Shown here: piece after piece, positions 1,716-41,771 of the stretch | How positions within the stretch are numbered: the stretch's first letter is position 1 | Layout of the letters: the number at the start of each line of letters is the position of its first letter | NCBI GenBank assembly: GCA_964631585.1 | Contig: CAZVXU010000001.1 | Coordinates: 170 to 64,169 of the forward strand | DNA length: 64,000 bases | Direction of reading: 5' to 3' | DNA from: an uncultured Spirochaetaceae bacterium | GTDB taxonomy: Bacteria; Spirochaetota; Spirochaetia; DSM-27196; PWMO01 | Notes under the pieces: model-generated | What the model was told of the DNA's origin: nothing | What the model saw: the letters and a program-made list of their open reading frames with translations, nothing else | Databases searched by the model: none | Position numbers and translations under genes: made by a program

Positions 1716-1759
1716 TATTGCATGCGAAACGCGCTACGATCTTTTATCTGGAGATGTAC

Positions 1760-4700
1760 ATGAAGAGGATATGGACCCTTGCAGCCCTTGCGCTGATTCT
1801 TGCCGTTCCGGCCGCCGCTCAGTACGATCCGCCCGCCGGCGGAGACGACAGCTATGAGCTGATCTCGCCGCTGTTTCTCGGTGGTGGATTCTCCGTTACA
1901 AGCGACGAAAGTCCGACCGGCAACCTCATGAACCCGGCCGTCTCGGGTCTCGAACAACGAGTCACGCTTGATGCGAGCTACATCGGCGTGACCGGATTCG
2001 GAGACGCCGCGGACAATGAGGGCTGGCAGGGTCACGCCGCCAACCTTGGCGCTACGATTCCGTCTCGCGTCGGCGTGTTCTCCGGGATGGTTCAGTTCCT
2101 CGGTTCCGATCTCGCGGCAATGGACCTCGGGTCGACCTTCCTCGGCCATGCGTCGTTTTCCAAGGACCTATACGACGATATCCTCGTCGGTACCGGTCTC
2201 AACTTTCGCGTCGGTGGCGACGGCGGGATCGATACGGGGCTCACCGCCGATCTCGGCGTGCTTCATCTCCCCGGCGATCTCGGGTTCGCCAAGGACTTCC
2301 GGTGGGGCGTGTCACTTCTGGGTATGGGGCTCCCATACACGCCCGTCGACGGACGGAGCTCGGTGCCGTCGATCTTTACGCCCGCTGTCGGTGCACAGTT
2401 TGCCCCGATTCAGGCGGAGGACGTGGAACTGGTGGTTCGAAATACCGTCAGTGCCCCTACCTTCCAGAACCTGCGCATGAATCTCGGCGCGACGCTCAAC
2501 ATCGCCGACCGGGTATCCGTGTTCACGAGCGTGCGGGGTGATGCTCGTCGTCTCCTGGACGGGAGCCTCGAGCACCGCAGCTTCATTCCGTCTGTAGGTA
2601 TTTCGGTGAACTTCGCGACCGACTTCGCCAAGAGTGAGAGTTTCATCTCCGATCGCGAGTGGAACCAGAGCGAAGTGCGCACCCGGATCACCGCGGCGCC
2701 ACTCTACGAGGGCACATGGGCCTTCGGGGCCGGGGTAAACGCTCCACTCGGCGTAGTGGACCGCGATCCGCCCGAAATCACGGTGGACTACGAGGAGACC
2801 GCCTACATCTCTCCGAATAACGACGGGACCCTGGATGCGCTTCGGCTACCGATCAGCATCGGGGACGACCGCTACGTCCGCGGTTACACGCTGACCATAC
2901 GTGACGAATCGGGCTCGGTGGTACGTACCATCGAGAACAAGGAGGACCGCCCGGAGAACGAGGGGGTCCAGAATATTCTCCAGAGGCTCGCGGCGGTGGA
3001 GTCCGGCATTCCCGTGCCGGAGAGCCTGCGCTGGGACGGCACGTCCAATGAGGGCTCCGTTGTCCCCGACGGCACCTACACCTTCGTTCTTTCAGCGGTT
3101 GACGACAACGGCAACCGGGCTCAATCCGAGGAGCAACAGGTCGTCATCGACACCACCGATCCCGAGATCGAGCTCGTGAAGCCGACGCCGGAAGACCGTA
3201 TCTTCTCGCCGAACGGTGACGGAAACAAAGACGAGTTTCCCCTCGCTCAGTCGGGCAGCACCGAGCAGCTCTGGGAGGCCCAGATAGAGGACGCCCGTGG
3301 CACCGTGATCAAGACCTGGACGTGGGAAGAAACGTCACCCGAGACCCTGTCCTGGGACGGTACTAACGATGCCGGCGAGTTCGTGCCCGACGGCGTATAC
3401 AGTTACACCGTGACCAGTACCGACCGGGCAGGCAACGCCACCGAGGAGACACTGGAGAACATCATCCTCGACACCCAGCCGACACCAATCCGCATGACCA
3501 TCGACTCGGCCTTCTTCTCGCCCAACGACGACGGGGTGCAGGACACCGTGACGCTCCTGCCCGATGTTCCCGTCACCTCCGGGCTGGAGCGCTGGGGCGT
3601 CGACATCATCGGTCCCGACGGAGAGGTTGCGCGCCGCTTCTCGGGGCTGCGTACGCCGCCGCAGCGCATCGCCTTTGACGGGGCCGATGCGGCCGGCGAC
3701 CGGCTGCCCGAGGGTGAGTATCGCGCGGAGCTCCGGATCGTGTACCAGAGTGGCAATCAGCCGGAGGCGACCTCCCCGTCATTTACCCTGGACGTCACGC
3801 CGCCGCGTGGCACCGTCCGGGCCAACTTCGAGGCATTCTCCCCGAACGGTGACGGAAACCGTGACGTGATCACCTTCGACCAGGAGACGTCGGTCGAACA
3901 ACTGTGGGAGGGCCGCGTTACGCGGGCGGACGGTGAGGTCGTCCGGACATTCACCTTCCGCGAAACCGCGGACCTCAGTACCAGCTGGGACGGCCGACGG
4001 GCCGACGGTCAGCTTGCCGATGACGGCCGCTATGCCTATCGCCTCGTCGCAACTGATCGCGCCGGAAATACCGGCGGCTCCCGGACCGTGGAGTTCGTGC
4101 TCGATACCGAGGAAGCGGAAGTTCTGCTTTCCGCCGAGTACGAGGCCTTCTCGCCCAACGCGGACGGCACACGGGACCGTGTGCAACTCTTCCCGCAGGT
4201 GCAGGAGAACCGCAACGTGGAAAGCTACACGTTGACCATCGAAACCGAAACCGGGGCGGCGGTTCGCACCATAAACGGTACCGGGCCGGTTGAGGGGGCC
4301 TTCGTCTGGGACGGATTCACGGACGACGGCGAGCGCGCCGACGACGATCGCTACCGGGCACTCCTTGAGGTCTCCTATCGCGACGGGGACCTCATCGAGG
4401 CGACCACTTCCGCGATACGTCTGGACACGAGGTATCCGCGGGCGGAGCTGGCAGCAGGATATACCCTGTTCTCTCCGAACGAGGACGGCAACAAGGATAT
4501 CGTTCCTATCGAGCAGTCATCCTCCACCGAAAGCCTGTGGGAGGCACGTATCGTGAACTCCGACGGGGAAGCGGTGCGCACCTGGTTCTGGAAAGAGACG
4601 CTCTCCGATGTGGAGTGGAGCGGCCGCGATGATTCGGGCAACCTGGTGCCGGACGGGACCTACCGATACGAGGTCACCGCCACCGACGCGGCGGGAAACA

Positions 4701-5782
4701 CCACCACTGAGACACTGCCGGGCCTGGAGGTGGACACGCGTCGTACGGCGGTCTTTGTTACCGTCGATGTCACGGGCTTCTCGCCCAACGGCGATGACTT
4801 CCGCGAGGCGGTGACGATTACGATGTATACCAATCTCCTCGACGGCGTCGAGTCCTGGACCCTGGATATTCTCGACGATACGGGTACACCGGTGCGCACC
4901 TTCGAGGGCGATGCCGCTCAGGCAAGCTCGGAGGTCATCTGGCGCGGCGTTGACGCCAACGGTGACATTGTGGAAGGGGAGTATACCGCCCGCTTCGAGG
5001 TGATATACGCAAAGGGCGACCGGCCGAGCGGGGAAACCACACCCTTCAGGCTCGACGTCACGGCTCCAGAGGTGGAGGTCGATCTCGACCCCGTCCCGTT
5101 CTCTCCTGATAACGACGGAGTGGACGATGAGCTTTCGATCGGTATCAGCGTGGAGGATGAAAGCGACATCTCGACGTGGCGAATGCGGGTACTCGATCGC
5201 GAGGGGAACTACTTCACCGACTTCTCCGGTGAGGGTGAGCCTGCCGAAGAGATCATCTGGGACGGGCGCGCCGCGAATGGGGAGCTCGTCATCTCAGCGG
5301 AGGACTATCCCTACATACTCGAGGTGACCGACGTACTCGGAAACACCGCGGTGACCGAGGGCGCTATTCCCGTTGATATCCTGGTGATTCGCGACGGCGA
5401 CAGGTTGCGCGTGCAGATAGCGAGCATCACTTTCGCGCCGAACAGCCCGGAGCTCATAACAGATACATCGACCGAGCGCGGGGCGAGGAACGCAGCGATC
5501 CTCTCGCGGCTGGTAGAGGTATTCGCCAAGTACGACGACTACCGCATCCGCATCGAGGGACACGCGGTAAACATCACCCAGACCGAACGCGAGGAGGTCG
5601 AGGAACTCGAGCCCCTCTCCGAGGCACGAGCCGAGGCGGTGAAGACCGCGCTTGTGGAGCGAGGTATGAGCGAGGACCGCATCTCCACGCTCGGGCGCGG
5701 TGGACGCGATCCGGTGGTTCCGCATACGGATCTGGACAACAGATGGAAAAACCGGCGGGTTGAGTTCATCCTGATCCGATAA
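1760..5782 (+). CDS. OmpA-family envelope protein with eight FlgD-Ig-like modules
   Basis: The track ORF is 1718..5782. I start it at the internal ATG at 1760 because MKRIWTLAALALILAVPAAAQ reads as a signal peptide. It contains eight ~105-aa modules with FSPNxDG...WDG...G.Y..(T/A)D.AGN motifs. The C-terminus (RIEGHA...NRRVEFILI) is an OmpA/MotB-like peptidoglycan-binding domain. Confidence 0.85.
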   Translation: MKRIWTLAALALILAVPAAAQYDPPAGGDDSYELISPLFLGGGFSVTSDESPTGNLMNPAVSGLEQRVTLDASYIGVTGFGDAADNEGWQGHAANLGATIPSRVGVFSGMVQFLGSDLAAMDLGSTFLGHASFSKDLYDDILVGTGLNFRVGGDGGIDTGLTADLGVLHLPGDLGFAKDFRWGVSLLGMGLPYTPVDGRSSVPSIFTPAVGAQFAPIQAEDVELVVRNTVSAPTFQNLRMNLGATLNIADRVSVFTSVRGDARRLLDGSLEHRSFIPSVGISVNFATDFAKSESFISDREWNQSEVRTRITAAPLYEGTWAFGAGVNAPLGVVDRDPPEITVDYEETAYISPNNDGTLDALRLPISIGDDRYVRGYTLTIRDESGSVVRTIENKEDRPENEGVQNILQRLAAVESGIPVPESLRWDGTSNEGSVVPDGTYTFVLSAVDDNGNRAQSEEQQVVIDTTDPEIELVKPTPEDRIFSPNGDGNKDEFPLAQSGSTEQLWEAQIEDARGTVIKTWTWEETSPETLSWDGTNDAGEFVPDGVYSYTVTSTDRAGNATEETLENIILDTQPTPIRMTIDSAFFSPNDDGVQDTVTLLPDVPVTSGLERWGVDIIGPDGEVARRFSGLRTPPQRIAFDGADAAGDRLPEGEYRAELRIVYQSGNQPEATSPSFTLDVTPPRGTVRANFEAFSPNGDGNRDVITFDQETSVEQLWEGRVTRADGEVVRTFTFRETADLSTSWDGRRADGQLADDGRYAYRLVATDRAGNTGGSRTVEFVLDTEEAEVLLSAEYEAFSPNADGTRDRVQLFPQVQENRNVESYTLTIETETGAAVRTINGTGPVEGAFVWDGFTDDGERADDDRYRALLEVSYRDGDLIEATTSAIRLDTRYPRAELAAGYTLFSPNEDGNKDIVPIEQSSSTESLWEARIVNSDGEAVRTWFWKETLSDVEWSGRDDSGNLVPDGTYRYEVTATDAAGNTTTETLPGLEVDTRRTAVFVTVDVTGFSPNGDDFREAVTITMYTNLLDGVESWTLDILDDTGTPVRTFEGDAAQASSEVIWRGVDANGDIVEGEYTARFEVIYAKGDRPSGETTPFRLDVTAPEVEVDLDPVPFSPDNDGVDDELSIGISVEDESDISTWRMRVLDREGNYFTDFSGEGEPAEEIIWDGRAANGELVISAEDYPYILEVTDVLGNTAVTEGAIPVDILVIRDGDRLRVQIASITFAPNSPELITDTSTERGARNAAILSRLVEVFAKYDDYRIRIEGHAVNITQTEREEVEELEPLSEARAEAVKTALVERGMSEDRISTLGRGGRDPVVPHTDLDNRWKNRRVEFILIR
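2765..5392 (+). repeat. tandem array of ~105-aa FlgD-Ig-like coding modules (8 copies, alternating A/B subtype)
   Basis: The FSP[ND]xDG motif recurs at nt ~2810, 3203, 3515, 3836, 4148, 4469, 4778 and 5099. Spacing alternates between 104 and 107 aa. Confidence 0.8.
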
Positions 5783-34238: not shown

Positions 34239-35330
34239 CTACTCGCCCCCCGGCTGTATCCGCCGAACGGCAACACCCCGCAGGCCGGTCAGCTCGGAAT
34301 CCGCTATAACCTCGGCAATGAGCTCCACCGACATGGCGGACTCGATGCGGGCGGCAAAGTTCAGTCGGACGGGGACCACGCCCTCGAGTACCCGCTGGTT
34401 CTCGTATCCGACGAGGAGATCGAAGATGATCGCATCGTCACCGATACTGACGTTTGCCGCGCGGCCGCGCCACCGGACGTAGCATCCCTCGTAGAGCCAG
34501 GGTTCTTCCGAAACCTCTCGATAGGAGAAGTTCTCGCCGAAATCAGTGAAGCCGGGCTCGCGGAGGTAGTCGGTGAGTAGCAGCGCCCGCTCCTTCAGAT
34601 CCGCGGCAGCGTTGGAGTGCAGCAGACGGTTTATTGCGCGCCGCGCGAGGTTATCCTCGCCGTCGTGGAAGTGGTCCCGGATCCGGTCGAAGAGCCGCTC
34701 CACCTCCCCTTCCGTGAGAACGTAGCGGAAGTCACCGGTGTACTGGATGAGTTGCTCACCCTCGGTGTCGATGTCCAGTACTTCGGCGCCCTGCCGCTCC
34801 TCGGCGGGGGGCCGGTCGAAGAGATCACTCCAGGGCACGAACAGAAAGCCTATGGCGAGAACTGCAATGAGTGCGCCGGCGCCCGCCCACAGAACCGCTT
34901 TGTGCAGCGGGAACGGCTTCCCGGGAAGGATTCGGTTGATGCGGCCCTCTCGAAAGAGCTCCTGTACCTCGGCCTGAGTCTCCGCCTCCCGTAACGCCGC
35001 GAGACCGCGCCGGGCCTGGGGATTACGGGGGTCCACGTCGAGAACGTCCAGCCAGAGCCGAAGGGCATCCTGGGTCTCGTTCCGTCGCAGATGCACCGCG
35101 GCCAGGCCAAGGAGGGAATCGGCATCATCCGGAGTCAGCTGGGCGGACCTGCTCAGGTAGGAGTAGGCGCCGCCGAGATCGCCCATCTGCAGGCACGACA
35201 TGCCGAGTAGATAGTAGAAGCGGGGATGCTCCCGGTACATGAACACCTGTGGCTCGAGCAGGTGGATGACATCGGAGTAGCGCCCGGAGGAAAAGAGGCG
35301 TTCCGCCTTCTTGAGTCCCTGAGTCTTCAT
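34239..35330 (-). CDS. bitopic TPR protein (cytoplasmic TPR, one TM, extracytoplasmic domain)
   Basis: 363 aa. N-terminal TPRs (YYLLGMSCLQMGDLGGAYSYL, LGLAAVHLRRNETQDAL) are followed by a TM segment (AVLWAGAGALIAVLAIGFLFV) and a ~190-aa C-terminal domain. Confidence 0.65.
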   Translation of the reverse strand: MKTQGLKKAERLFSSGRYSDVIHLLEPQVFMYREHPRFYYLLGMSCLQMGDLGGAYSYLSRSAQLTPDDADSLLGLAAVHLRRNETQDALRLWLDVLDVDPRNPQARRGLAALREAETQAEVQELFREGRINRILPGKPFPLHKAVLWAGAGALIAVLAIGFLFVPWSDLFDRPPAEERQGAEVLDIDTEGEQLIQYTGDFRYVLTEGEVERLFDRIRDHFHDGEDNLARRAINRLLHSNAAADLKERALLLTDYLREPGFTDFGENFSYREVSEEPWLYEGCYVRWRGRAANVSIGDDAIIFDLLVGYENQRVLEGVVPVRLNFAARIESAMSVELIAEVIADSELTGLRGVAVRRIQPGGE

Positions 35331-35341
35331 TCGGCGTGTGG

Positions 35342-36400
35342 CTACCGCGTATCGTACGCTTCCTGACGGTTTTCGAGCTGCCGCAGGATTTCCTCGACCA
35401 CTTCCACGTCCTCCGCGTCGAGCTCGGCGTCTCCAGAAAGAAGCGTGTCGATCTCGTCGAGGAGATCGTTGACAGATACCAACTCTTCCCGGGCAGTCCG
35501 GGCATCGAGTTCCGGCGCGGCTTCATCGCGGGCGCGATCGAGAAGCTCCGCGCTCTCAGTTCGAGCCACAGAGTACTCTGCGTAGCCCGCCGGGTCGAGG
35601 TTTCCGATGAGCGTCGTTATTCGCCGCGACTCCCCCGGTGCAAGCTGTTCGGCACCGTAGTACACAGCCGCGGCCGAATCGTCAATGGAGTATGGAAGCA
35701 GGCTGAAAGTACGATCGGCGTTGACGGTGTAGTCGTAGGTCGTTTCCGACAGTCGCTTCCAGTTCGCAAAGACGACGCGTTCGGGTCTCGTAATGCCCTC
35801 TCCCGCGATCAGCTGCTGAAAGCCCACCCCCTCGCGCTCGGGATCCGGCGTTGCCCACCATGAGCGGGCCGAAGACGGGGTCACTTGAGTCTCAGAGCGA
35901 AGGCGCTCTCCGTCGGCGAGGAGGAAATGGGCCTGCCGGGACTCCGCGAGGTAAGTGTCAAAGAGGTATCGCGCCGCCACCTCGCGAGGAACCTCGGAGA
36001 CGTTCTCGATGACGAGCTCCACGATCACCCCGTTTGCCAGACGCGCCGACGTGGATGTAACGAAGGAAAACCGCTGGGTGATCCTCAACACGCCGGATTC
36101 CCACACGAACGCCGCCCGTCCGCCCGCCTGACGCTCCACGCGAAGGTCGAACCGTGGCGAGTTGCCGAGCCTATACACGTCGTTTCCGTCGCGAATCCGG
36201 ATTTCCGACGTTCGCGGGTCGGTGTCGTCTATCAGAGGAATGTAGCGGTCCCGTTGGAGGTCGGTCCGATAGTCGAGGGAGAAGCGCCCGCTCTGCTCGT
36301 GCAGCACGAGCCTCACGCGGCCCTCGGTGAGCTCGATCGCGGGAACCTGCCACGCGACGACAGCCATCACAACAAGCAACAGAAGTGCACGCCGCATCAC
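35342..36400 (-). CDS. hypothetical secreted protein
   Basis: 352 aa with a signal peptide (MMRRALLLLVVMAVVAWQVPA) and an acidic helical C-terminus. I recognise no family. It overlaps the upstream gene by 4 nt. Confidence 0.6.
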   Translation of the reverse strand: MMRRALLLLVVMAVVAWQVPAIELTEGRVRLVLHEQSGRFSLDYRTDLQRDRYIPLIDDTDPRTSEIRIRDGNDVYRLGNSPRFDLRVERQAGGRAAFVWESGVLRITQRFSFVTSTSARLANGVIVELVIENVSEVPREVAARYLFDTYLAESRQAHFLLADGERLRSETQVTPSSARSWWATPDPEREGVGFQQLIAGEGITRPERVVFANWKRLSETTYDYTVNADRTFSLLPYSIDDSAAAVYYGAEQLAPGESRRITTLIGNLDPAGYAEYSVARTESAELLDRARDEAAPELDARTAREELVSVNDLLDEIDTLLSGDAELDAEDVEVVEEILRQLENRQEAYDTR

Positions 36401-37341
36401 ATTCCCCCCGCCTCGATGTCGCCGAGCCGGTTCAGGTAGAACTCCTTGAGCTCCAGGGCCCGGGCTTTCGTCTCCACGAGCTCGCGCTCCGCGGTGCTCG
36501 TCGGCGCCCGTTCCGGTGTCGGCCGGCTTGCCAGTCGCTGTCTGAGGTCCCGTATTTCGCGATCACGCTCGGAGAGCTCGGCCTCGAGCTCCGATACTCT
36601 CTCGCTGAGGCGATCCAGCTCCGCGCGGAAATCGCCGCTGGCGAGACGTCGCAGGCGCTCGCGATACTCGCTCAGCGCCTCCTCGTAGGTTCGTTCGCGC
36701 TGCTCGAACTCATCGATAGCGTTGAGATACTCCTGATGACTCCAGCGCAGGAGCTTCAACAGCGATTGCTCCCGTCGATTGAGCTCGATAACCGACAGGC
36801 GGTACTCGGCGGCCTCCGCGCGAAAGCTCTCGGGGTACTCCTCGGTGACGGTACGGAACACCTCCGCCGAGCGTTCGAACTGGCCGAGCGCGTACAGCGC
36901 CTCGCCGATCCAGTAGTAGGCGTTCGGCAGAAAACGGGAGTCCGGATGTCGCACGATGAAGTCCTCGAGGGCTCGGATGGCTTCCTGATAGTCTTCCTCC
37001 AGATACAGAAGCCGCCCCCGCTGATAGCGTGCTTCGGCGGCAAAGCGGTGCTCCGGGTAGTTCTGCAGGAAGAACTCGAGGTTCTCCGCCGCCTCCTCGA
37101 GACGTCCGGCGGCCAGTGCGGAGCGACCGATCCAGAAATACGCATCCGCGCGGTAGGCGTCGGCCTCGGGAGATGAGAGAAGCTCCCTGAACGTCACCAT
37201 CGCCTGCTCATAGCTGCCGCCTCGAAAATCCTCCAGCCCCTCTTCCAGAATCCGCCGGGCAGGATCCGCTTCCTGAGCAAACGTTGACATCGTTACGAGT
37301 AGTAGCACGACGGCAATCGTCGCACGAGTAGTCGTTATCAT
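36397..37341 (-). CDS. secreted TPR protein (YbgF/CpoB-like repeats) with C-terminal coiled coil
   Basis: I start it at the ATG at 37341 because MITTTRATIAVVLLLVTMSTFAQE reads as a signal peptide. TPR_6-like repeats (YPEHRFAAEARYQRG, HPDSRFLPNAYYWIGEAL, YPESFRAEAAEYRL) are followed by an Arg/Glu coiled coil. Confidence 0.65.
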   Translation of the reverse strand: MITTTRATIAVVLLLVTMSTFAQEADPARRILEEGLEDFRGGSYEQAMVTFRELLSSPEADAYRADAYFWIGRSALAAGRLEEAAENLEFFLQNYPEHRFAAEARYQRGRLLYLEEDYQEAIRALEDFIVRHPDSRFLPNAYYWIGEALYALGQFERSAEVFRTVTEEYPESFRAEAAEYRLSVIELNRREQSLLKLLRWSHQEYLNAIDEFEQRERTYEEALSEYRERLRRLASGDFRAELDRLSERVSELEAELSERDREIRDLRQRLASRPTPERAPTSTAERELVETKARALELKEFYLNRLGDIEAGGM

Positions 37342-37438
37342 GAAAAGCCGGTCTCCTATTACTGTGTCGACCTGGTGACCCGACGACCTGATACCGCAAT
37401 CATAAATCATGACTCCGTCTATGGCAAACCCGCGGTCG

Positions 37439-37468: not shown

Positions 37469-37497
37469 TATAGATGAAACAGAGATTTAAGGGGACT

Positions 37498-38451
37498 ATG
37501 TCTCACGACCAACAGGGCGCACACGGAGAGCCTGTCGAGAGTCTCCTGAGGGCGGCTTACGAGCATACGAAAAACAGGGAACTTCATGACGCCGGAAGGA
37601 AGCTTGAGGAGGCGCTGTCGGTAGACTTCGACAATACCGAGGTCGTGACGGCGCTCAAGTACGTCAACTTCTGGAAAGATCGTGATGCCTCCTCAAGGGA
37701 GGCTTCGAGCGGATTCGAGCGGGGCGAGTACCTCCTCGGTCAATGGAGACTGTTCAACGCATTCGTTCGTCGTGTCGGGGAAATATCGGAACGGTTTCTC
37801 TACGCAATTCGACAATACGCATTCGGCGAAGCGCTCGAAGAGTTCGAGCGTAGCGCTGAAGAATCCGGTGGAAACGATCCGGAAATCCTCCTCCGCAAGG
37901 GTCGCTGCTACAAGGGAACCGGCGAATACGACAAGGCCCTCGAAGTTCTGTCGAAGGCTGCCCGTGCCCGCTCGGATGACCCGCACGTACTTGCCGAGCT
38001 TGCCGATTCCTACGCCCTGGTCAACGAGATCAGCAAGGCAAAGGCCTTTTTTCGCGAAGCCTTTTTCCTCGGTCCCCAGAAAGTAGATATCGGGACGCTC
38101 GAGTCGGAAATGATCGGGCGGCTGATTACCAAACTACGGGAGCTCGGATACGAGAGCCCGGCGCTGGAAGAGTGGCTTCCGGTCTACGGAGTACTATACG
38201 GGGTGTTTTCAGTCAAACGAGAGCTGCGATCCATCGAGTATGGAAAGCTCAAACAGTCCATCTACGCCCTGGAACACGAGTATCACGACAAACCTGACCC
38301 CGACGGCATTGTGTGTGCAAAACTCCTCAATCGGTACTTCTGGTTGATCGATCACTACACGAATACACAGGAAGACCAAAGTAAGATAGATGAAGTGCTG
38401 CTGAAGATCCGGAGCACGAACGAGAAGATCTACAGCCACTACGTCAGCTAA
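37498..38451 (+). CDS. hypothetical helical-repeat (TPR-like) protein
   Basis: The track ORF starts at 37474. The ATG at 37498 has a Shine-Dalgarno sequence. TPR-like helices include LLRKGRCYKGTGEYDKALEVL and LAELADSYALVNEISKAKAFF. The greA start is 15 nt downstream. Confidence 0.6.
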   Translation: MSHDQQGAHGEPVESLLRAAYEHTKNRELHDAGRKLEEALSVDFDNTEVVTALKYVNFWKDRDASSREASSGFERGEYLLGQWRLFNAFVRRVGEISERFLYAIRQYAFGEALEEFERSAEESGGNDPEILLRKGRCYKGTGEYDKALEVLSKAARARSDDPHVLAELADSYALVNEISKAKAFFREAFFLGPQKVDIGTLESEMIGRLITKLRELGYESPALEEWLPVYGVLYGVFSVKRELRSIEYGKLKQSIYALEHEYHDKPDPDGIVCAKLLNRYFWLIDHYTNTQEDQSKIDEVLLKIRSTNEKIYSHYVS

Positions 38452-38465
38452 CACAGGAGAGAGAC

Positions 38466-41216
38466 ATGGCGGAAGAGCAAAAGACAGAGCAGCAGACTGA
38501 AGAACAGCAAGCACCCGAGCACGAGCTGGTCCAATCGGTTGCCGACCAACTCAATCAGGAAAAATGGACCCGCGCAGCGCTCAATAACTATACAGTTAAT
38601 AACTTCAAGGAGCTGGACGAACTTCTCGACCGCATTATCAGCGAGGGGCTGGAAGATGAGATACTCGAGCTCTGTGAGGAGCATCTCCACCACACGAAGA
38701 ACAGCATAATCGCTCTGTACCTCTCCGGCATGATCCGCCTACGCCATCAGGCAGTCGACGACAGCAACCTCGTGATGCTCATAAACATCTTCACCGATAA
38801 TCACCGCTGGAATATCGTCGAGTACCTTGCAAACAGGATCCTCGACTTCGGCGAGAATCGCTTCGCGCTGCGAACACTAGCGGAGACCTACAACAGCGAG
38901 AACCAGCGGGAAAAGATGTACGACGTGTGGGAGCGTCTCATCCGCGTCGACTACGAGGAGGCGGACATCGTTCGTCATCTCGCCGAGAAACGCGAGGAAG
39001 AGGGTGAGCTCGACGACGCCGTCGATTACTACAAAAAGGCCCTGCACCGCTACATCAACAAGAAGAACTTCAACAACATCAAGGAAATCTGGCACCGGCT
39101 CATTCAGTATGCGCCGGAGGACAGCGAGTTCTTCGATCATGCGGAGGGAAAGATCGCCAAGTTGGTCTCCGAGGATCGTGCCGTGCAACTTCTCGAGGAC
39201 CTCTTCCCCCACTACAAGAAGGAAGGAAACTGGGATCGCGCGATCGAGATCCTGAAGCGGGTACTGACCTATGATCCCAAGAACCCGTGGGCGCGCAAGG
39301 AGATCGTCGAGTGTTACAAACAGAAGTACGCCGACCACAGCCACCTCGATGAGTACATCCGCATATCGAATCTGAATCAGAGCTGGAGAAACGTCCACGA
39401 CGCCATCGCCGATTTCGAGAAGCACATTTCGTTCGATTCGGGCAACTTCGTGTTTCACCGCAGTTGGGGCGTCGGTATCATCCGCAAGATCGACGACGAC
39501 TCGGTGGTTGTGGATTTCGCCAAGAAGCGCGGCCACAAGATGTCGCTCAAGATGGCTGTGAGCGCCCTCGATATTTTGCCGAAAGATCATATCTGGGTAC
39601 TTCGGAGCATCGCGGACAAGCAGAAGCTCCATGACAAAGTCAAGAACGACCCGAAATGGGCCCTGAAGACCGTCATCAAGAGCCTCGGCAACGCGGCTGA
39701 CATGAAGAAGGTCAAAGCCGAGCTTGTCCCCTACGTGCTCTCGCAGCGCGAGTGGTCGTCATGGAGTACCAAGGCGCGACAGATCCTCAAGACGAACAAA
39801 GAGTTCGGGAATCTCACCGACAAGCCCGATTACTTCATGGTGCGCGATCAGCCCATCACTTTTGCCGAGAAGATGTACAACAAGTTTCGCGCCGAGAAGG
39901 ACTTCTTCGGTCGGGTGAAGGTACTGGACGAGTTTCTCGAGCAGTCTGCCGAGGAGGAGCGCGAATCGACGGAGTCCGACCTCTTTCGAGAGATGTTCGA
40001 GTACTTCGCCGGCTTTCTGCGCTCGCAAACCGCGGTAAACGAGCAGGTCGTTGCGAGCTATCTCGTGGTCAAGCGCATAACCGATCGCTTCCCCTTTCTG
40101 AATCCGAGAGTGGAGCTGGACTTTCCCCGCCTCTTCGAGCAGATCGGCAACGTGGAGGAGATATTCTCCCGCATCGACAACGGCGCTCTCAAGAGCGAGT
40201 TCCTCGAACAGATCAAACAGCACGTAAACGACTGGCCGGATTACTATGTGCGGCTGTTTCCCTATCACCTCTCTCGCGATATCATCTACGATCTCGAGAC
40301 CCGCGGTCACGCCGATCGGCTGAAGGATATGTTCTTCAGCATCTTCAACAATTATCGAGACATGCGCGAGCCCTTCGTATGGATGGTTCGCCACTGCGCT
40401 GCCGACGACTGGTACCAGTCGCTGCCCGTGGAATATGAGAAGCTGCTGATAGCGATGGTCCATCTCCTGGATATTACCGCTCGGGAGATTGACAACCGGC
40501 GGGACGTTAGCTCCAATCGCAAGCTTCATCGGCAAATCCACACCTATCTGTTCAAGTCCGGAAATCTCGCCGACTACATCGGCCGCGCCGACGAAGAAAG
40601 CGTGAATCGCCTCTTCAGTCTGGTAAGCGACGTCAAGGACCTCGACCCATCACTGGTGATCGAGATCAAGCAGCGCGTTCTCGACCGTTTCCCGGACTTC
40701 AAGTTCCACGGCGAAGCAGAGGCCGAGATCGTCAGCCGCGGCCTCATCGTCACGCCGTCGAGCTACGAGGCGAAACAGAAGCAGCTCAAGCACATCCACG
40801 AGGTCGAGGTGCCCGAGAACTCCCAGGAGATTGCCGAGGCAAGAGAGCACGGAGACCTGAAGGAGAATGCCGAGTACAAGGCGGCCAAGGAGCGGCAGGA
40901 CATGCTCAACACCACGGCCGCGAGACTGACCGAGGAGATCGAGCGGGCACAGATCGTGCGCCCGAAAGACGTGGACGATTCCGCCGTCACCTTCGGAACG
41001 AAGGTGACGCTCTACAACAATGACTCCGGCGAGCAGGAGGAGTACACGGTGCTCGGTCCGTGGGAGTCGAACCCGGAGGAGTCGGTTATTTCCTACCTCT
41101 CCCCGCTCGGCAGCAAGCTCTACAACCACAAAGAGGGTGAAGAGCTCGAGCTGACGATTAACGATCGCCAGTACAACTATCGGGTGGAGAGCATCGAGGT
41201 CGCGTCGTTCAGCTAA
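38466..41216 (+). CDS. greA: long-form transcription elongation factor GreA (GreA domain at C-terminus, ~760-aa N-terminal extension)
   Basis: 916 aa. The last ~155 aa (from nt ~40743) carry the GreA hallmarks AREHGDLKENAEYKAAKERQ and VTFGTKVTL...YTVLG..ES.P....ISY.SPLG. The N-terminal extension is helical-repeat rich. Confidence 0.85.
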   Translation: MAEEQKTEQQTEEQQAPEHELVQSVADQLNQEKWTRAALNNYTVNNFKELDELLDRIISEGLEDEILELCEEHLHHTKNSIIALYLSGMIRLRHQAVDDSNLVMLINIFTDNHRWNIVEYLANRILDFGENRFALRTLAETYNSENQREKMYDVWERLIRVDYEEADIVRHLAEKREEEGELDDAVDYYKKALHRYINKKNFNNIKEIWHRLIQYAPEDSEFFDHAEGKIAKLVSEDRAVQLLEDLFPHYKKEGNWDRAIEILKRVLTYDPKNPWARKEIVECYKQKYADHSHLDEYIRISNLNQSWRNVHDAIADFEKHISFDSGNFVFHRSWGVGIIRKIDDDSVVVDFAKKRGHKMSLKMAVSALDILPKDHIWVLRSIADKQKLHDKVKNDPKWALKTVIKSLGNAADMKKVKAELVPYVLSQREWSSWSTKARQILKTNKEFGNLTDKPDYFMVRDQPITFAEKMYNKFRAEKDFFGRVKVLDEFLEQSAEEERESTESDLFREMFEYFAGFLRSQTAVNEQVVASYLVVKRITDRFPFLNPRVELDFPRLFEQIGNVEEIFSRIDNGALKSEFLEQIKQHVNDWPDYYVRLFPYHLSRDIIYDLETRGHADRLKDMFFSIFNNYRDMREPFVWMVRHCAADDWYQSLPVEYEKLLIAMVHLLDITAREIDNRRDVSSNRKLHRQIHTYLFKSGNLADYIGRADEESVNRLFSLVSDVKDLDPSLVIEIKQRVLDRFPDFKFHGEAEAEIVSRGLIVTPSSYEAKQKQLKHIHEVEVPENSQEIAEAREHGDLKENAEYKAAKERQDMLNTTAARLTEEIERAQIVRPKDVDDSAVTFGTKVTLYNNDSGEQEEYTVLGPWESNPEESVISYLSPLGSKLYNHKEGEELELTINDRQYNYRVESIEVASFS

Positions 41217-41219
41217 CCG

Positions 41220-41771
41220 CTAATCGTTCTGCGGGGCGGATTCCGAGGTCGCTCGCAAGCTTTCGTTGATTCGTTCCACCGCGGCATTCACGTCCGCGGC
41301 GGAGCTTCGCATTCGCCGCTCGAAGCGCCGAAAGCGCCGCCGGTCGATGTCCGCATCCTCGGCGGGCTCCACACTCATCGCGGAAATCGTGTTGGCCCAG
41401 CTCTCGAGCTCGCCCCGCAGAGCCCCCAGCGTCGCACGATGAGGGAGATGTCCTTCTTCTTCCACCGCGACGGCCACTGCACTCGCCCGGCGCGACAGCT
41501 CGCCCAGCGCCGCCTCAGCTTCGCTCAGCTCGGCTTCACGGGTAAGACGCGGAGAGGGAACCTCGGTCTCGTGAGCCTGACGTGCGGCACTCTCCTGGGC
41601 GGCAATGCCCGGCGCGAGAAGTGCGGCGAGCACACCCAGCACACCCGCAAGCACCAGAGTCCGGATGTCGGGAGTCCTGAAGCCGGGAGCCCTGATGCAG
41701 TGCCCGCCGGCACTAAAGCTGTTCGAGTACCGTTTCTGCATTCTGTCTGACCGCCGGGTGGTTTCCTTCAT
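41220..41771 (-). CDS. hypothetical secreted helical protein
   Basis: 183 aa with a hydrophobic N-terminal segment (LVLAGVLGVLAALLAPGIAAQE) and an Ala/Glu/Arg-rich rest. The start is uncertain because it overlaps the upstream gene's 3' end. Confidence 0.45.
   Translation of the reverse strand: MKETTRRSDRMQKRYSNSFSAGGHCIRAPGFRTPDIRTLVLAGVLGVLAALLAPGIAAQESAARQAHETEVPSPRLTREAELSEAEAALGELSRRASAVAVAVEEEGHLPHRATLGALRGELESWANTISAMSVEPAEDADIDRRRFRRFERRMRSSAADVNAAVERINESLRATSESAPQND

What the first reader, a model, noticed from the sequence alone, without database searches (positions are those of the whole stretch)
38466..41216. 916-aa GreA: the extension contains a CarD/KOW-like barrel motif ahead of the C-terminal Gre factor domain
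Seen in the sequence: only the last ~155 aa (from nt ~40743) are GreA-like (AREHGDLKENAEYKAAKERQ...). Within the ~760-aa extension, residues ~326-380 (nt 39441-39605) read GNFVFHRSWGVGIIRKIDDDSVVVDFAKKRGHKMSLKMAVSALDILP.

Established knowledge: the G-[DN]-x-V-x-[HY]-x-x-[HW]-G-x-G-x-[IV] pattern followed by short beta strands is reminiscent of the Tudor/SH3-like RNA-polymerase-interacting domain of CarD/CdnL/Mfd, and more loosely of KOW motifs. Very long GreA homologues are, as I recall, annotated in spirochaetes, but I know of no functional dissection.

Inference: one polypeptide may combine a secondary-channel factor with a second RNAP-docking module and helical-repeat scaffolds. The gene is preceded at 15 nt by an unknown TPR-like gene (37498..38451) that is probably co-transcribed.
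Basis: partly seen in the sequence, partly recalled or inferred. Interest (0 to 1): 0.55.

Follow-up and report, generated by a model that had tools for sequence, protein, structure and literature searches.

The report
Long GreA with a Tudor domain
This is the known 900-residue spirochaete form of the transcript-cleavage factor GreA, and its unexplained extension does contain a small, very conserved Tudor-type barrel of the kind that UvrD/PcrA, CarD and Mfd use to grip RNA polymerase, which suggests that this Gre factor holds the polymerase at two points.

Summary
ORF 38466..41216 encodes 916 aa, only aa 761-911 are GreA, and the quoted motif starts at nt 39441. The protein is a full-length member of NCBIfam NF011309, the long spirochaetal GreA, so the gene family is known.

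The extension has four parts:
- a TPR solenoid (aa ~25-300)
- a small beta-barrel (323-368)
- a helical 'WxxWW' domain (375-462)
- a poorly conserved helical domain (466-741)

Three lines of evidence place the barrel among bacterial RNAP-interacting Tudor domains:
- Sub-threshold Pfam hits in 20-28 of 46 diverse homologues go to CarD_TRCF_RID, PcrA_UvrD_tudor and DUF3553.
- A family profile hits UvrD/PcrA Tudor chains in the PDB.
- The AlphaFold model superposes on the UvrD C-terminal domain (TM 0.86, 1.2 A), then on CarD, CdnL and Mfd.

The closest relative is PcrA/UvrD, not CarD. KOW is not supported. The PcrA residues needed for RNAP binding align with near-invariant GreA residues, except that the Lys is a His. 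The barrel is as conserved as the Gre domain.

Two things are new here. Gre-less versions of the extension exist, and the upstream 325-aa gene is a conserved partner. Docking on RNAP is inferred, not shown.

The parts
37474..38451 (+). Upstream 325-aa cytoplasmic helical/TPR-like gene, a conserved partner of the long greA and probably co-transcribed with it.
   Evidence: ORF, translation (no signal peptide seen). Only TPR families hit in Pfam. The stop is 14 nt before the greA ATG. An orthologue lies immediately upstream on the same strand in all 70 related spirochaete loci that reach upstream of greA. It is also upstream of a Gre-less homologue in L083, at 24% identity and E=4e-26.
38455..38459 (+). 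Shine-Dalgarno-like AGGAG, 6 nt before the greA ATG.
   Evidence: Read directly from the sequence.
38466..41216 (+). Long-form greA ORF, 916 aa, stop codon included.
   Evidence: NCBIfam NF011309 (PRK14720) scores 1111 bits against a cutoff of 714, aligned over aa 25-915. An identical 916-aa protein, P0001, is in NCBI.
38538..39365 (+). N-terminal TPR-like alpha-solenoid (aa ~25-300).
   Evidence: Pfam TPR_19, TPR_1 and TPR_14 score above their cutoffs at aa 144-285. The AlphaFold model shows paired helices 8-300 with pLDDT ~90. Foldseek hits are TPR scaffolds. The solenoid is shortened to ~115-125 aa in the PVC-type homologues.
39432..39569 (+). Tudor/SH3-like beta-barrel (aa 323-368) of the bacterial RNAP-interaction class, closest to the PcrA/UvrD C-terminal Tudor domain. 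Key residues are H331, W334, G335, G337, F351, H357, M359 and A364.
   Evidence: Strands lie at 328-331, 335-343, 346-351 and 357-360. Supporting results are the Pfam per-member scan, the profile search of PDB sequences, Foldseek, hhalign and the alignment with UvrD C-terminal domains. Mean pairwise identity is 0.39, against 0.16-0.25 for the other extension domains.
39588..39851 (+). Helical domain with a terminal beta-hairpin (aa 375-462) carrying the conserved W430-x-x-W-W motif. Fold family unknown.
   Evidence: Secondary structure from the model. W430 is present in 44/46 sequences. No significant PDB or Pfam match was found. A fragment spanning aa ~330-465 carries the precomputed family PF27167, which is not in the local Pfam copy.
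39861..40688 (+). All-alpha domain (aa 466-741), the least conserved part of the protein.
   Evidence: The model shows helices with pLDDT ~85-94. Mean pairwise identity is 0.16.
40689..40745 (+). Flexible linker (aa 742-760).
   Evidence: pLDDT is below 50 at 749-757 and there is no secondary structure. Gre-less homologues end about here.
40746..40955 (+). Gre N-terminal coiled coil (aa 761-830), with the acidic tip residues D797 (nt 40854-40856) and E800 (nt 40863-40865).
   Evidence: Pfam GreA_GreB_N, E=1.7e-21. GDLxENAEY is conserved in every Gre-containing homologue. Foldseek matches GreA 1grj with TMt 0.81.
40980..41198 (+). Gre C-terminal globular domain (aa 839-911).
   Evidence: Pfam GreA_GreB, E=5.2e-22. 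Foldseek matches GreA, GreB and Gfh1.

Best explanation
The gene encodes the long-form GreA of Spirochaetota. Its C-terminal 155 aa are a catalytically competent Gre factor: a coiled coil with the acidic tip D797/E800 that reaches the RNAP active site through the secondary channel, plus the globular domain that sits on the beta' rim helices.

The 760-aa extension is a modular scaffold: TPR solenoid, Tudor barrel, WxxWW domain and helical domain, joined to the Gre part by a ~20-aa flexible linker. The Tudor barrel (aa 323-368) is homologous to the RNAP-interaction Tudor domains of PcrA/UvrD, CarD/CdnL and Mfd.

The barrel most likely works as a second, secondary-channel-independent anchor on the RNAP beta subunit. 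That would keep the Gre domain tethered to the elongating enzyme. The most probable site is the one used by the PcrA/UvrD Tudor domain, an exposed beta-hairpin in the beta lobe/Si1 region. The TPR solenoid and the co-transcribed 325-aa partner protein would then provide further protein-protein interfaces.

Shown here: the domain architecture, the Tudor fold assignment and its closest relatives, conservation of the interface residues, intact Gre catalytic residues, and the conserved operon partner.

Inferred: binding of the barrel to RNAP, the site on beta, and the tethering function.
For: The Gre part is intact. Pfam GreA_GreB_N and GreA_GreB hit at E~1e-21. NF011309 matches over the full length at 1111 bits against a cutoff of 714. 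The GDLxENAEY tip is present in all 39 Gre-containing representatives. Foldseek TMt to GreA, GreB and Gfh1 is ~0.8.

The Tudor assignment rests on four results.
- Across 46 diverse segments, CarD_TRCF_RID hits 28, PcrA_UvrD_tudor hits 28 and DUF3553 hits 20, with best E-values of 2e-4, 2.1e-4 and 2e-6. The next family is hit by only 5 members.
- The profile of the 46 segments hits the UvrD C-terminal domain 7egt_B at E=0.0025, and then PcrA 5dma and UvrD 4c2t, 9dqs, 7egs and 6yi2.
- The domain model has a core pLDDT of 78-82.
- Foldseek ranks 7egt_B first (TMt 0.86, rmsd 1.2 A, 29% identity). It is followed by 5dma, 9dqs, 7egs_B (UvrD C-terminal domain bound to the RNAP lobe), CarD 4kbm_B, CdnL 2lqk and Mfd 6aca.

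The barrel is closest to UvrD. hhalign gives E=3.4e-4 over 37 columns, against 0.057 for Mfd and 0.083 for CarD.

The interface residues are conserved. The PcrA residues whose mutation reduces RNAP binding are H681, W684, K712 and L714, and F705 is the aromatic-cage residue (PMC5397179). They align with GreA H331, W334, H357, M359 and F351. These are conserved in 44, 36 (+4 F), 39, 35 and 44 of 46 representatives respectively.

The Tudor barrel is as conserved as the Gre domains, with mean pairwise identity of 0.39 against 0.38 and 0.35. It is far more conserved than the rest of the extension, at 0.16-0.25.

The PcrA/UvrD Tudor domain binds a TGE hairpin in beta Si1 (PMC8318588). Si1 lies next to the secondary-channel factor DksA in E. 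coli, and spirochaete and PVC RNAPs have Si1 (bioRxiv 10.64898/2026.02.09.704077).

The long GreA of B. burgdorferi co-purifies with RNAP (PMC7237435).
Against: No Tudor family reaches its curated Pfam cutoff on the window's own sequence: 16-17 bits against 23 for CarD_TRCF_RID, and 13.6 against 23.9 for PcrA_UvrD_tudor.

Foldseek E-values are only ~1e-2, because the domain is small.

In the full-length model the barrel has a low pLDDT of 52-64, and pTM is 0.39, so nothing can be said about how the domains are arranged.

The PcrA/UvrD Lys that is critical for binding is a His in GreA, so the partner surface may differ.

I could not obtain a spirochaete RpoB sequence to check that the TGE hairpin exists there.

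No complex prediction could be run, and there is no experiment.

Gre-less homologues show that the extension has a role that does not require a covalently attached Gre domain.

One lineage, Candidatus Ornithospirochaeta (P0237; P0254 shows the same pattern), has replaced most of the interface residues.
Confidence: 0.55

Rival explanations
1. CarD/Mfd-type docking. The barrel binds the beta1/protrusion site used by the CarD and Mfd RIDs by extending a beta-sheet, and so competes with CarD and Mfd rather than with UvrD.
For: Pfam CarD_TRCF_RID is the top hit for the window's own segment (E=0.006-0.013, covering profile positions 1-49 of 57) and is hit by 28/46 members. CarD 4kbm_B, CdnL 2lqk and Mfd 6aca are among the Foldseek hits. 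Spirochaetes have a canonical CarD on the protrusion, so the site exists.
Against: hhalign aligns only the first 21-22 columns to Mfd and CarD, at E=0.057 and 0.083. It aligns 37 columns to UvrD at E=3.4e-4. The second half of the barrel has the PcrA/UvrD length and the [KH]-x-[LM]-x-L-K-x-A motif, not the longer CarD/Mfd insert with its 'VP' motif. The best structural matches are all UvrD or PcrA. The following domain shows no significant similarity to the CarD C-terminal domain (E=0.55).
Confidence: 0.15
2. The barrel is a Tudor-type adaptor for a partner other than RNAP. Candidates are UvrB or another protein with a helicase-interaction-motif hairpin, the co-transcribed 325-aa protein, or nucleic acid. 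Under this reading the extension is a separate factor that merely became fused to GreA.
For: The PcrA/UvrD Tudor domain also binds UvrB and other proteins through the same hairpin motif (PMC8318588; 7egt is the UvrD C-terminal domain bound to UvrB). Seven of the 46 representatives lack the Gre domain but keep the barrel and the upstream partner gene. The Lys to His change suggests an altered specificity.
Against: Fusion to a dedicated RNAP factor in at least 581 species, and in two or more phyla, argues that the module acts on the same machine. Every characterised bacterial relative of this Tudor class (PcrA/UvrD, CarD, Mfd) binds the RNAP beta subunit.
Confidence: 0.2
3. The barrel is a generic SH3-like or KOW-like structural element with no specific binding role, and its resemblance to RNAP-binding Tudor domains is convergent or due to chance.
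For: All sequence matches are sub-threshold. Foldseek also lists unrelated small barrels such as ribosomal proteins, PHF1 Tudor, Hfq and an Spt5 KOW at E 0.01-0.2.
Against: The three top Pfam families are all bacterial Tudor families of one kind, and two of them are RNAP-binding. They recur in 20-28 of 46 independent members, while the next family has 5 hits and KOW has none. The profile search of PDB sequences returns almost only UvrD or PcrA chains. Surface residues, not only core residues, are conserved and coincide with the PcrA interface. The barrel is as conserved as the catalytic Gre domain.
Confidence: 0.07

Closest known systems
C-terminal Tudor domain of PcrA/UvrD helicases (Pfam PF21196; PDB 5DMA, 7EGT, 7EGS, 6YI2, 9DQS)
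   Same: Both are ~50-aa five-stranded barrels. Both carry the H-x-x-[WF]-G-x-G motif, the conserved Phe and the ...x-[LM]-x-L-K-x-A second half. This is the best sequence-profile, hhalign and Foldseek match. In PcrA/UvrD the domain docks the protein onto RNAP beta (lobe/Si1 hairpin) and onto UvrB.
   Different: The GreA barrel lies in the middle of a Gre factor, not at the end of an SF1 helicase behind a disordered linker. The critical Lys (PcrA K712, UvrD K708) is a His. The match is below the Pfam gathering score. Binding has not been tested.
CarD/CdnL and the Mfd (TRCF) RNAP-interacting domain (Pfam PF02559)
   Same: Both belong to the same Tudor-like fold class and share the G-[DN]-x-V-x-H-x-x-[HW]-G-x-G first half. 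This is the top Pfam hit for the window's own segment, and these proteins are also Foldseek neighbours. Like CarD, the GreA barrel is followed by a helical domain with a conserved Trp.
   Different: Only the first ~21 residues align in hhalign. The second half lacks the CarD/Mfd insert and the 'VP' motif. The similarity of the following domain to the CarD C-terminal domain is not significant (E=0.55).
Chlamydial 'transcript cleavage factor/unknown domain fusion protein' (NCBIfam NF004969, PRK06330), with related ~740-aa proteins in Planctomycetota
   Same: The core architecture is the same: Tudor barrel, WxxWW domain, helical domain and Gre. The HMM aligns to aa 191-904 of the window protein. 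Candidatus Brocadia proteins of 740 aa keep the motif.
   Different: Its score of 207 bits is far below the cutoff of 697, so the window protein is not a member. The PVC forms have only ~115-125 aa before the barrel and no long TPR solenoid.
Canonical GreA/GreB (~160 aa; PDB 1GRJ, 2P4V)
   Same: The C-terminal 155 aa have the same two domains and the same acidic tip.
   Different: The canonical factors bind RNAP only through the Gre C-terminal domain and the coiled coil. They have no extension.
Eukaryotic TFIIS (functional analogue, from established knowledge)
   Same: TFIIS is a cleavage factor built from a docking domain on the polymerase surface, a linker, and an acidic hairpin inserted through the pore. 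That is the same logic proposed here.
   Different: The folds are unrelated. This is an analogy only and was not tested here.

Membership tests
GreA/GreB transcript cleavage factors (Pfam PF03449 + PF01272; TIGR01462) | N-terminal coiled-coil domain and C-terminal globular domain, both above the curated thresholds. | tested here: met
   PF03449 scores 76.7 bits against a cutoff of 24.5 at aa 761-830. PF01272 scores 78.1 bits against 26.9 at aa 839-911. TIGR01462 scores 158.6 against 139.
GreA/GreB transcript cleavage factors (Pfam PF03449 + PF01272; TIGR01462) | Two acidic residues at the coiled-coil tip (E. coli GreA D41 and E44, from established knowledge), needed for cleavage stimulation. 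| tested here: met
   G796-D797-L-K-E800-N-A-E-Y is present. D and E are found in all 39 Gre-containing representatives, with one E to D exception.
Long spirochaetal GreA (NCBIfam NF011309 / PRK14720, equivalog) | Full-length match above the curated cutoff. | tested here: met
   1111.1 bits against a cutoff of 714, with aa 25-915 aligned to model positions 9-905 of 906.
Chlamydial Gre fusion protein (NCBIfam NF004969 / PRK06330) | Full-length match above the curated cutoff. | tested here: not met
   207.3 bits against a cutoff of 697. The protein is a homologue but not a member.
PcrA/UvrD Tudor domain (Pfam PF21196) | Sequence match at the Pfam gathering score. | tested here: not met
   The window segment scores 12.4-13.6 bits against a cutoff of 23.9. 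28/46 family members hit at E<=1, with a best E of 2.1e-4. The family profile hits UvrD 7egt_B at E=0.0025.
PcrA/UvrD Tudor domain (Pfam PF21196) | Five-stranded Tudor fold that superposes on solved PcrA/UvrD C-terminal domains. | tested here: met
PcrA/UvrD Tudor domain (Pfam PF21196) | Conserved interaction-surface residues (PcrA H681, W684, F705, K712, L714). | tested here: inconclusive
   H331, W334, F351 and M359 match in identity or kind. The Lys is replaced by His357, which is conserved in 39/46.
PcrA/UvrD Tudor domain (Pfam PF21196) | Binds the TGE hairpin of RNAP beta Si1/lobe and of UvrB. | not testable with these tools
   No rpoB or uvrB lies in the window. No complex prediction tool was available.
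CarD/TRCF RID (Pfam PF02559) | Sequence match at the Pfam gathering score. | tested here: not met
   16-17 bits against a cutoff of 23. 28/46 members hit, with a best E of 2e-4. hhalign to Mtb CarD gives E=0.083 and to the E. coli Mfd RID gives 0.057, in both cases over the first half only.
CarD/CdnL proteins | The RID is followed by the CarD C-terminal helical domain with the Trp wedge. | tested here: not met
   hhalign of the aa 372-466 profile against Mtb CarD does place W430 against W85, but at E=0.55 and probability 0.1%. No Pfam CarD C-terminal hit was found.
KOW motif (Pfam PF00467) | Sequence match to the KOW profile. | tested here: not met
   There is no KOW hit in any of the 46 members at E<=1. 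Only generic fold neighbours were found, namely an Spt5 chain and ribosomal proteins at E 0.01-0.17.
TPR repeats | Matches to TPR profiles above their cutoffs. | tested here: met
   TPR_19 scores 33.2 against 25, TPR_1 scores 29.9 against 27.8, and TPR_14 scores 29.3 against 23.5. The model shows a helical solenoid at aa 8-300.

The most novel reading that the evidence does not exclude
The unit Tudor barrel, WxxWW domain and helical domain, together with its co-transcribed 325-aa partner, is an autonomous RNAP-associated factor that also exists without any Gre domain.

Its PcrA/UvrD-type Tudor barrel occupies the helicase-docking hairpin on RNAP beta (Si1/lobe). In Spirochaetota and PVC bacteria the anti-backtracking cleavage factor would then be permanently tethered beside the secondary channel.

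It would also compete directly with the pro-backtracking helicase UvrD, and possibly with UvrB, for the same docking site. That would link transcript rescue to the choice of transcription-coupled repair pathway.
Probability: 0.15. Interest if true: 0.75.

Novelty: new variant of a known kind. Interest (0 to 1): 0.55.

Why it matters
All characterised Gre factors hold RNAP through the secondary-channel rim only. They compete there with DksA, Gfh1 and similar factors. A Gre factor with a second, independent anchor on the beta subunit would have different occupancy and competition rules.

This form is the standard one in a whole phylum that includes Treponema and Borrelia. A related form occurs in Chlamydiae and Planctomycetes.

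The assignment turns an 'unknown domain fusion' into a concrete hypothesis that can be tested by mutation. The residues to change are H331, W334, H357 and M359. The timing is good, because a reconstituted Spirochaeta africana RNAP system with cryo-EM now exists (bioRxiv 10.64898/2026.02.09.704077).

The Gre-less homologues and the conserved partner gene suggest an undescribed RNAP accessory module.

Tried and rejected
- A single-sequence search of aa 306-505 against PDB sequences gave only chance hits to thymidylate kinase.
- A database search with the 71-aa Tudor profile returned only 5 fragments, because the word index gave few candidates. It therefore said nothing about other architectures that carry this barrel.
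- A search with the diverse full-length alignment returned mostly the same spirochaete proteins, at identities of 52% and above. The structure predictions therefore rest on shallow alignments.
- The diverse Tudor alignment was too variable for the genome scan. The closer alignment, A5, returned only Spirochaetota among the best 80 loci.
- The idea that aa 375-462 is a CarD C-terminal-like domain, with W430 matching the CarD Trp wedge, was tested and is not significant.
- The WxxWW domain profile found nothing credible in the PDB or in Pfam.
- The full-length model searched against the PDB gave only Gre factors and generic TPR scaffolds, and nothing for aa 375-741.
- A 'TGE' in the upstream protein (KGTGEYDKA) was judged, by eye only, to be an ordinary TPR turn rather than a helicase-interaction hairpin.
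- Seven literature searches found no dissection of the long GreA. Subramanian et al. 2000 (PMC97324) is not held.
- The names of Pfam PF27371 and PF27167, which are precomputed on all homologues, could not be read. It remains possible that Pfam curators have already delimited part of this region.


Full report
**1. Observation**

The + strand ORF 38466..41216 (ATG start, 916 aa) exists as described. An AGGAG lies 6 nt before the ATG. The stop codon of the upstream gene is 14 nt before the ATG.

Pfam finds GreA_GreB_N at aa 761-830 and the Gre C-terminal domain at aa 839-911. In the other 760 aa it finds only TPR families, at aa ~144-285.

The quoted peptide starts at aa 326 (nt 39441).

The window is an ordinary chromosomal stretch of a member of Spirochaetota with 60% G+C. 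It carries dnaG, rpoD, mrdA, rpsA, recA, murJ, tgt, pnp, infB, nusA and mutS. The closest genome in the species collection is a Great Salt Lake spirochaete MAG, whose GreA is 96% identical.

**2. The gene family is known**

NCBIfam NF011309 (PRK14720, 'transcription elongation factor GreA', an equivalog of 906 positions) matches over the full length at 1111 bits, against a cutoff of 714. The chlamydial 'transcript cleavage factor/unknown domain fusion protein' NF004969 aligns to aa 191-904 but scores far below its cutoff.

The family is large:
- 2779 homologues at 90% clustering
- 827 representatives at 50% clustering with E<=1e-3 for the non-TPR, non-Gre region
- at least 581 species-level genomes, of which the best 80 are all Spirochaetota, Treponema included

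A 740-aa form belongs to Candidatus Brocadia in the Planctomycetota.

Every homologue carries two precomputed Pfam families, PF27371 and PF27167. Both are newer than the local Pfam copy, and I could not read their names. A fragment spanning aa ~330-465 carries PF27167. Two fragments that contain only the complete barrel carry no family. This suggests, without proving it, that the barrel itself is not covered by either family.

**3. Architecture**

The full-length AlphaFold model has a mean pLDDT of 83 and a pTM of 0.39, so the domains are trustworthy but their arrangement is not. It shows these parts:

| Residues | Element |
|---|---|
| 8-300 | Helical solenoid |
| 310-324 | Helix |
| 328-360 | Four strands, followed by a short helix |
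| 375-462 | Helical domain ending in a beta-hairpin |
| 466-741 | All-alpha domain |
| 749-757 | Disordered stretch within the aa 742-760 linker |
| from 764 | Gre coiled coil and globular domain |

**4. The barrel is a Tudor-like domain of the bacterial RNAP-interaction class**

(a) Pfam on the window's own segment. CarD_TRCF_RID hits at E=0.006-0.013, covering profile positions 1-49 of 57. PcrA_UvrD_tudor and DUF3553 follow at E~0.06-0.15. All are below their curated cutoffs.

(b) Pfam on 46 segments from cluster representatives that are 21-47% identical overall, each scanned separately. CarD_TRCF_RID is hit by 28 (best E 2e-4), PcrA_UvrD_tudor by 28 (best 2.1e-4) and DUF3553 by 20 (best 2e-6). 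The next family is another SH3-like domain, hit by 5. KOW is hit by none.

(c) A profile of those 46 segments searched against all PDB sequences. Eight of its nine hits are UvrD or PcrA chains. They include the T. thermophilus UvrD C-terminal domain 7egt_B at E=0.0025, PcrA 5dma at 0.08 and D. radiodurans UvrD 4c2t at 0.12.

(d) A domain-only model of aa 308-384, with a core pLDDT of 78-82, searched with Foldseek against the PDB:

| Rank | Hit | Detail |
|---|---|---|
| 1 | 7egt_B, UvrD C-terminal domain | TM 0.86 on the target, rmsd 1.2 A, 29% identity |
| 2 | 5dma, PcrA Tudor | - |
| 4-6 | 9dqs, UvrD1 Tudor | - |
| 8 | 7egs_B, E. coli UvrD C-terminal domain bound to the RNAP lobe | - |
| 9 | 4kbm_B, CarD bound to RNAP beta | - |
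| 15 | 2lqk, CdnL | - |
| 30 | 6aca, Mfd | - |

The E-values are ~1e-2, as expected for 50 residues.

(e) hhalign of the family profile. It gives E=3.4e-4 over 37 columns against the E. coli UvrD C-terminal domain. Against the E. coli Mfd RID it gives 0.057 over 21 columns, and against M. tuberculosis CarD 0.083 over 22 columns.

The nearest relative is PcrA/UvrD rather than CarD or Mfd, and KOW is supported only at the level of the generic SH3-like fold.

**5. Conservation and interface**

Across the 46 representatives, G337 is the only invariant column apart from the start Met. H331, G335, F351, A364, L368, W430 and W209 are at least 90% conserved.

Mean pairwise identity by domain:

| Domain | Identity |
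|---|---|
| Tudor barrel | 0.39 |
| Gre N-terminal domain | 0.38 |
| Gre C-terminal domain | 0.35 |
| WxxWW domain | 0.25 |
| TPR solenoid | 0.25 |
| Helical domain | 0.16 |

In G. stearothermophilus PcrA, the H681A, W684A, K712A and L714A substitutions reduce RNAP binding, and W684 and F705 form the cage-like face (PMC5397179). In the HMMER and MAFFT alignments these positions correspond to GreA H331, W334, H357, M359 and F351. These are present in 44, 36 (+4 Phe), 39 (+5 Gln), 35 and 44 of 46 sequences respectively.

The one systematic difference is that the UvrD/PcrA Lys is a His in GreA. One gut-spirochaete lineage, Candidatus Ornithospirochaeta, has replaced most of these residues.

**6. 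Mechanism (inference)**

The Gre part has the acidic tip GDLKENAEY with D797 and E800, conserved in all Gre-containing homologues. It should therefore stimulate transcript cleavage in the usual way.

The barrel most likely supplies a second anchor on RNAP beta. Two sites are known for this domain class:
- The PcrA/UvrD Tudor domain binds a TGE hairpin in the lineage-specific Si1 insert of the lobe. It does not compete with Mfd (PMC8318588; PDB 7egs).
- CarD and Mfd bind beta1, the protrusion.

Sequence and structure favour the PcrA/UvrD mode.

The geometry is plausible. In E. coli, Si1 contacts the secondary-channel factor DksA. Spirochaete and PVC RNAPs possess Si1 without the nested subdomain that makes most of that contact (bioRxiv 10.64898/2026.02.09.704077). 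About 390 folded residues and a ~20-aa linker separate the barrel from the Gre domain.

The long GreA of B. burgdorferi co-purifies with RNAP (PMC7237435).

None of this was tested directly. The window contains no rpoB, and no complex prediction was available.

**7.

(i) The architecture varies around a constant core of barrel, WxxWW domain and helical domain:
- Spirochaete forms of ~900 aa have the long TPR solenoid and the Gre domain.
- PVC-type forms of ~730-745 aa have only ~115-125 aa before the barrel and keep Gre.
- Forms of ~830-870 aa are intermediate.
- Seven of the 46 representatives (725-740 aa) have the TPR solenoid and the core but end at the linker, with no Gre domain.

One Gre-less gene was inspected in its contig. 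It ends at a genuine stop codon and is followed by non-coding repeat DNA. Another is a hypothetical protein from a spirochaete MAG.

(ii) The upstream 325-aa helical gene is a strict neighbour. An orthologue at 31-98% identity lies immediately upstream on the same strand in all 70 of the 80 related loci that reach upstream of greA. A homologue also precedes the Gre-less gene (E=4e-26). The partner therefore goes with the extension, not with the Gre domain.

**8. Comparison with what is known, and novelty**

The protein is a member of the known long-GreA family and of the Gre family. It is not a member of the chlamydial equivalog.

The barrel resembles the PcrA/UvrD and CarD/TRCF Tudor families but fails their curated sequence thresholds. 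It is best described as a divergent, family-specific Tudor domain of that class.

In the paper library I could search, no article dissects the long GreA or mentions a Tudor domain in it. The library is incomplete, and two new Pfam families exist on these proteins.

I rate this a new variant of a known kind: a secondary-channel factor that carries a helicase/CarD-type RNAP-docking domain. The interest is moderate to good. The family is widespread and includes pathogens, the hypothesis can be tested residue by residue, and an in vitro spirochaete RNAP system now exists.

Noticed in passing
window 37474-38451 (+); related loci L001-L080; L083 3977-5014: The 325-aa helical/TPR-like gene upstream of greA is conserved in the same position and orientation in all 70 related spirochaete loci that reach upstream of greA. 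A homologue also precedes a Gre-less version of the extension. It has no informative family match.
   Followed up: partly
P0195, P0197, P0201, P0216, P0219, P0224, P0225; L083 4971-7214: Homologues of 725-740 aa have the TPR solenoid, Tudor barrel, WxxWW domain and helical domain, but no Gre domain. In L083 the gene ends at a true stop codon. I could not determine whether those genomes carry a separate GreA.
   Followed up: partly
P0248, P0252, P0255 (Candidatus Brocadia), P0257, P0260, P0267, P0269: PVC-type long Gre factors of ~730-745 aa have only ~115-125 aa before the Tudor barrel, and forms of ~830-870 aa have ~200 aa. The TPR solenoid is therefore the variable part.
   Followed up: partly
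P0237 (Candidatus Ornithospirochaeta stercoravium; its 90%-identity cluster has 118 members) and P0254: In these two representatives the Tudor interface residues are replaced (H331Q, W334R, F351Y, H357Q, M359I), although the barrel and the Gre domain are kept. This may be a natural loss or change of the interaction.
   Followed up: no
all homologues P0001-P0120 and P0275-P0328: The precomputed Pfam families PF27371.1 and PF27167.1 are newer than the local Pfam library, so their names and boundaries are unknown. PF27167 maps at least to aa ~330-465, judging from fragment P0274.
   Followed up: partly
L083 7244-7602: A long imperfect hexanucleotide repeat (GGCATT/GGCATC)n runs from just after the Gre-less gene to the end of the contig. 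On the other strand it reads as an (MP)n ORF.
   Followed up: no
window 34239-37410 (-): Three consecutive genes are transcribed divergently from the greA pair. Two of them are TPR proteins, and the one at 36397-37410 matches the tol-pal YbgF/CpoB model above its cutoff. The greA gene thus sits in a cluster of TPR genes.
   Followed up: no
window 1718-5782 (+): A 1354-aa protein has a C-terminal OmpA-like domain, internal FlgD-like/Ig-like repeats, and partial similarity to the leptospiral adhesin Lsa66.
   Followed up: no
window 41220-41771 (-): A 183-aa ORF convergent with greA has no family match. It is conserved only in the closest genome (L001, 66% identity).
   Followed up: no
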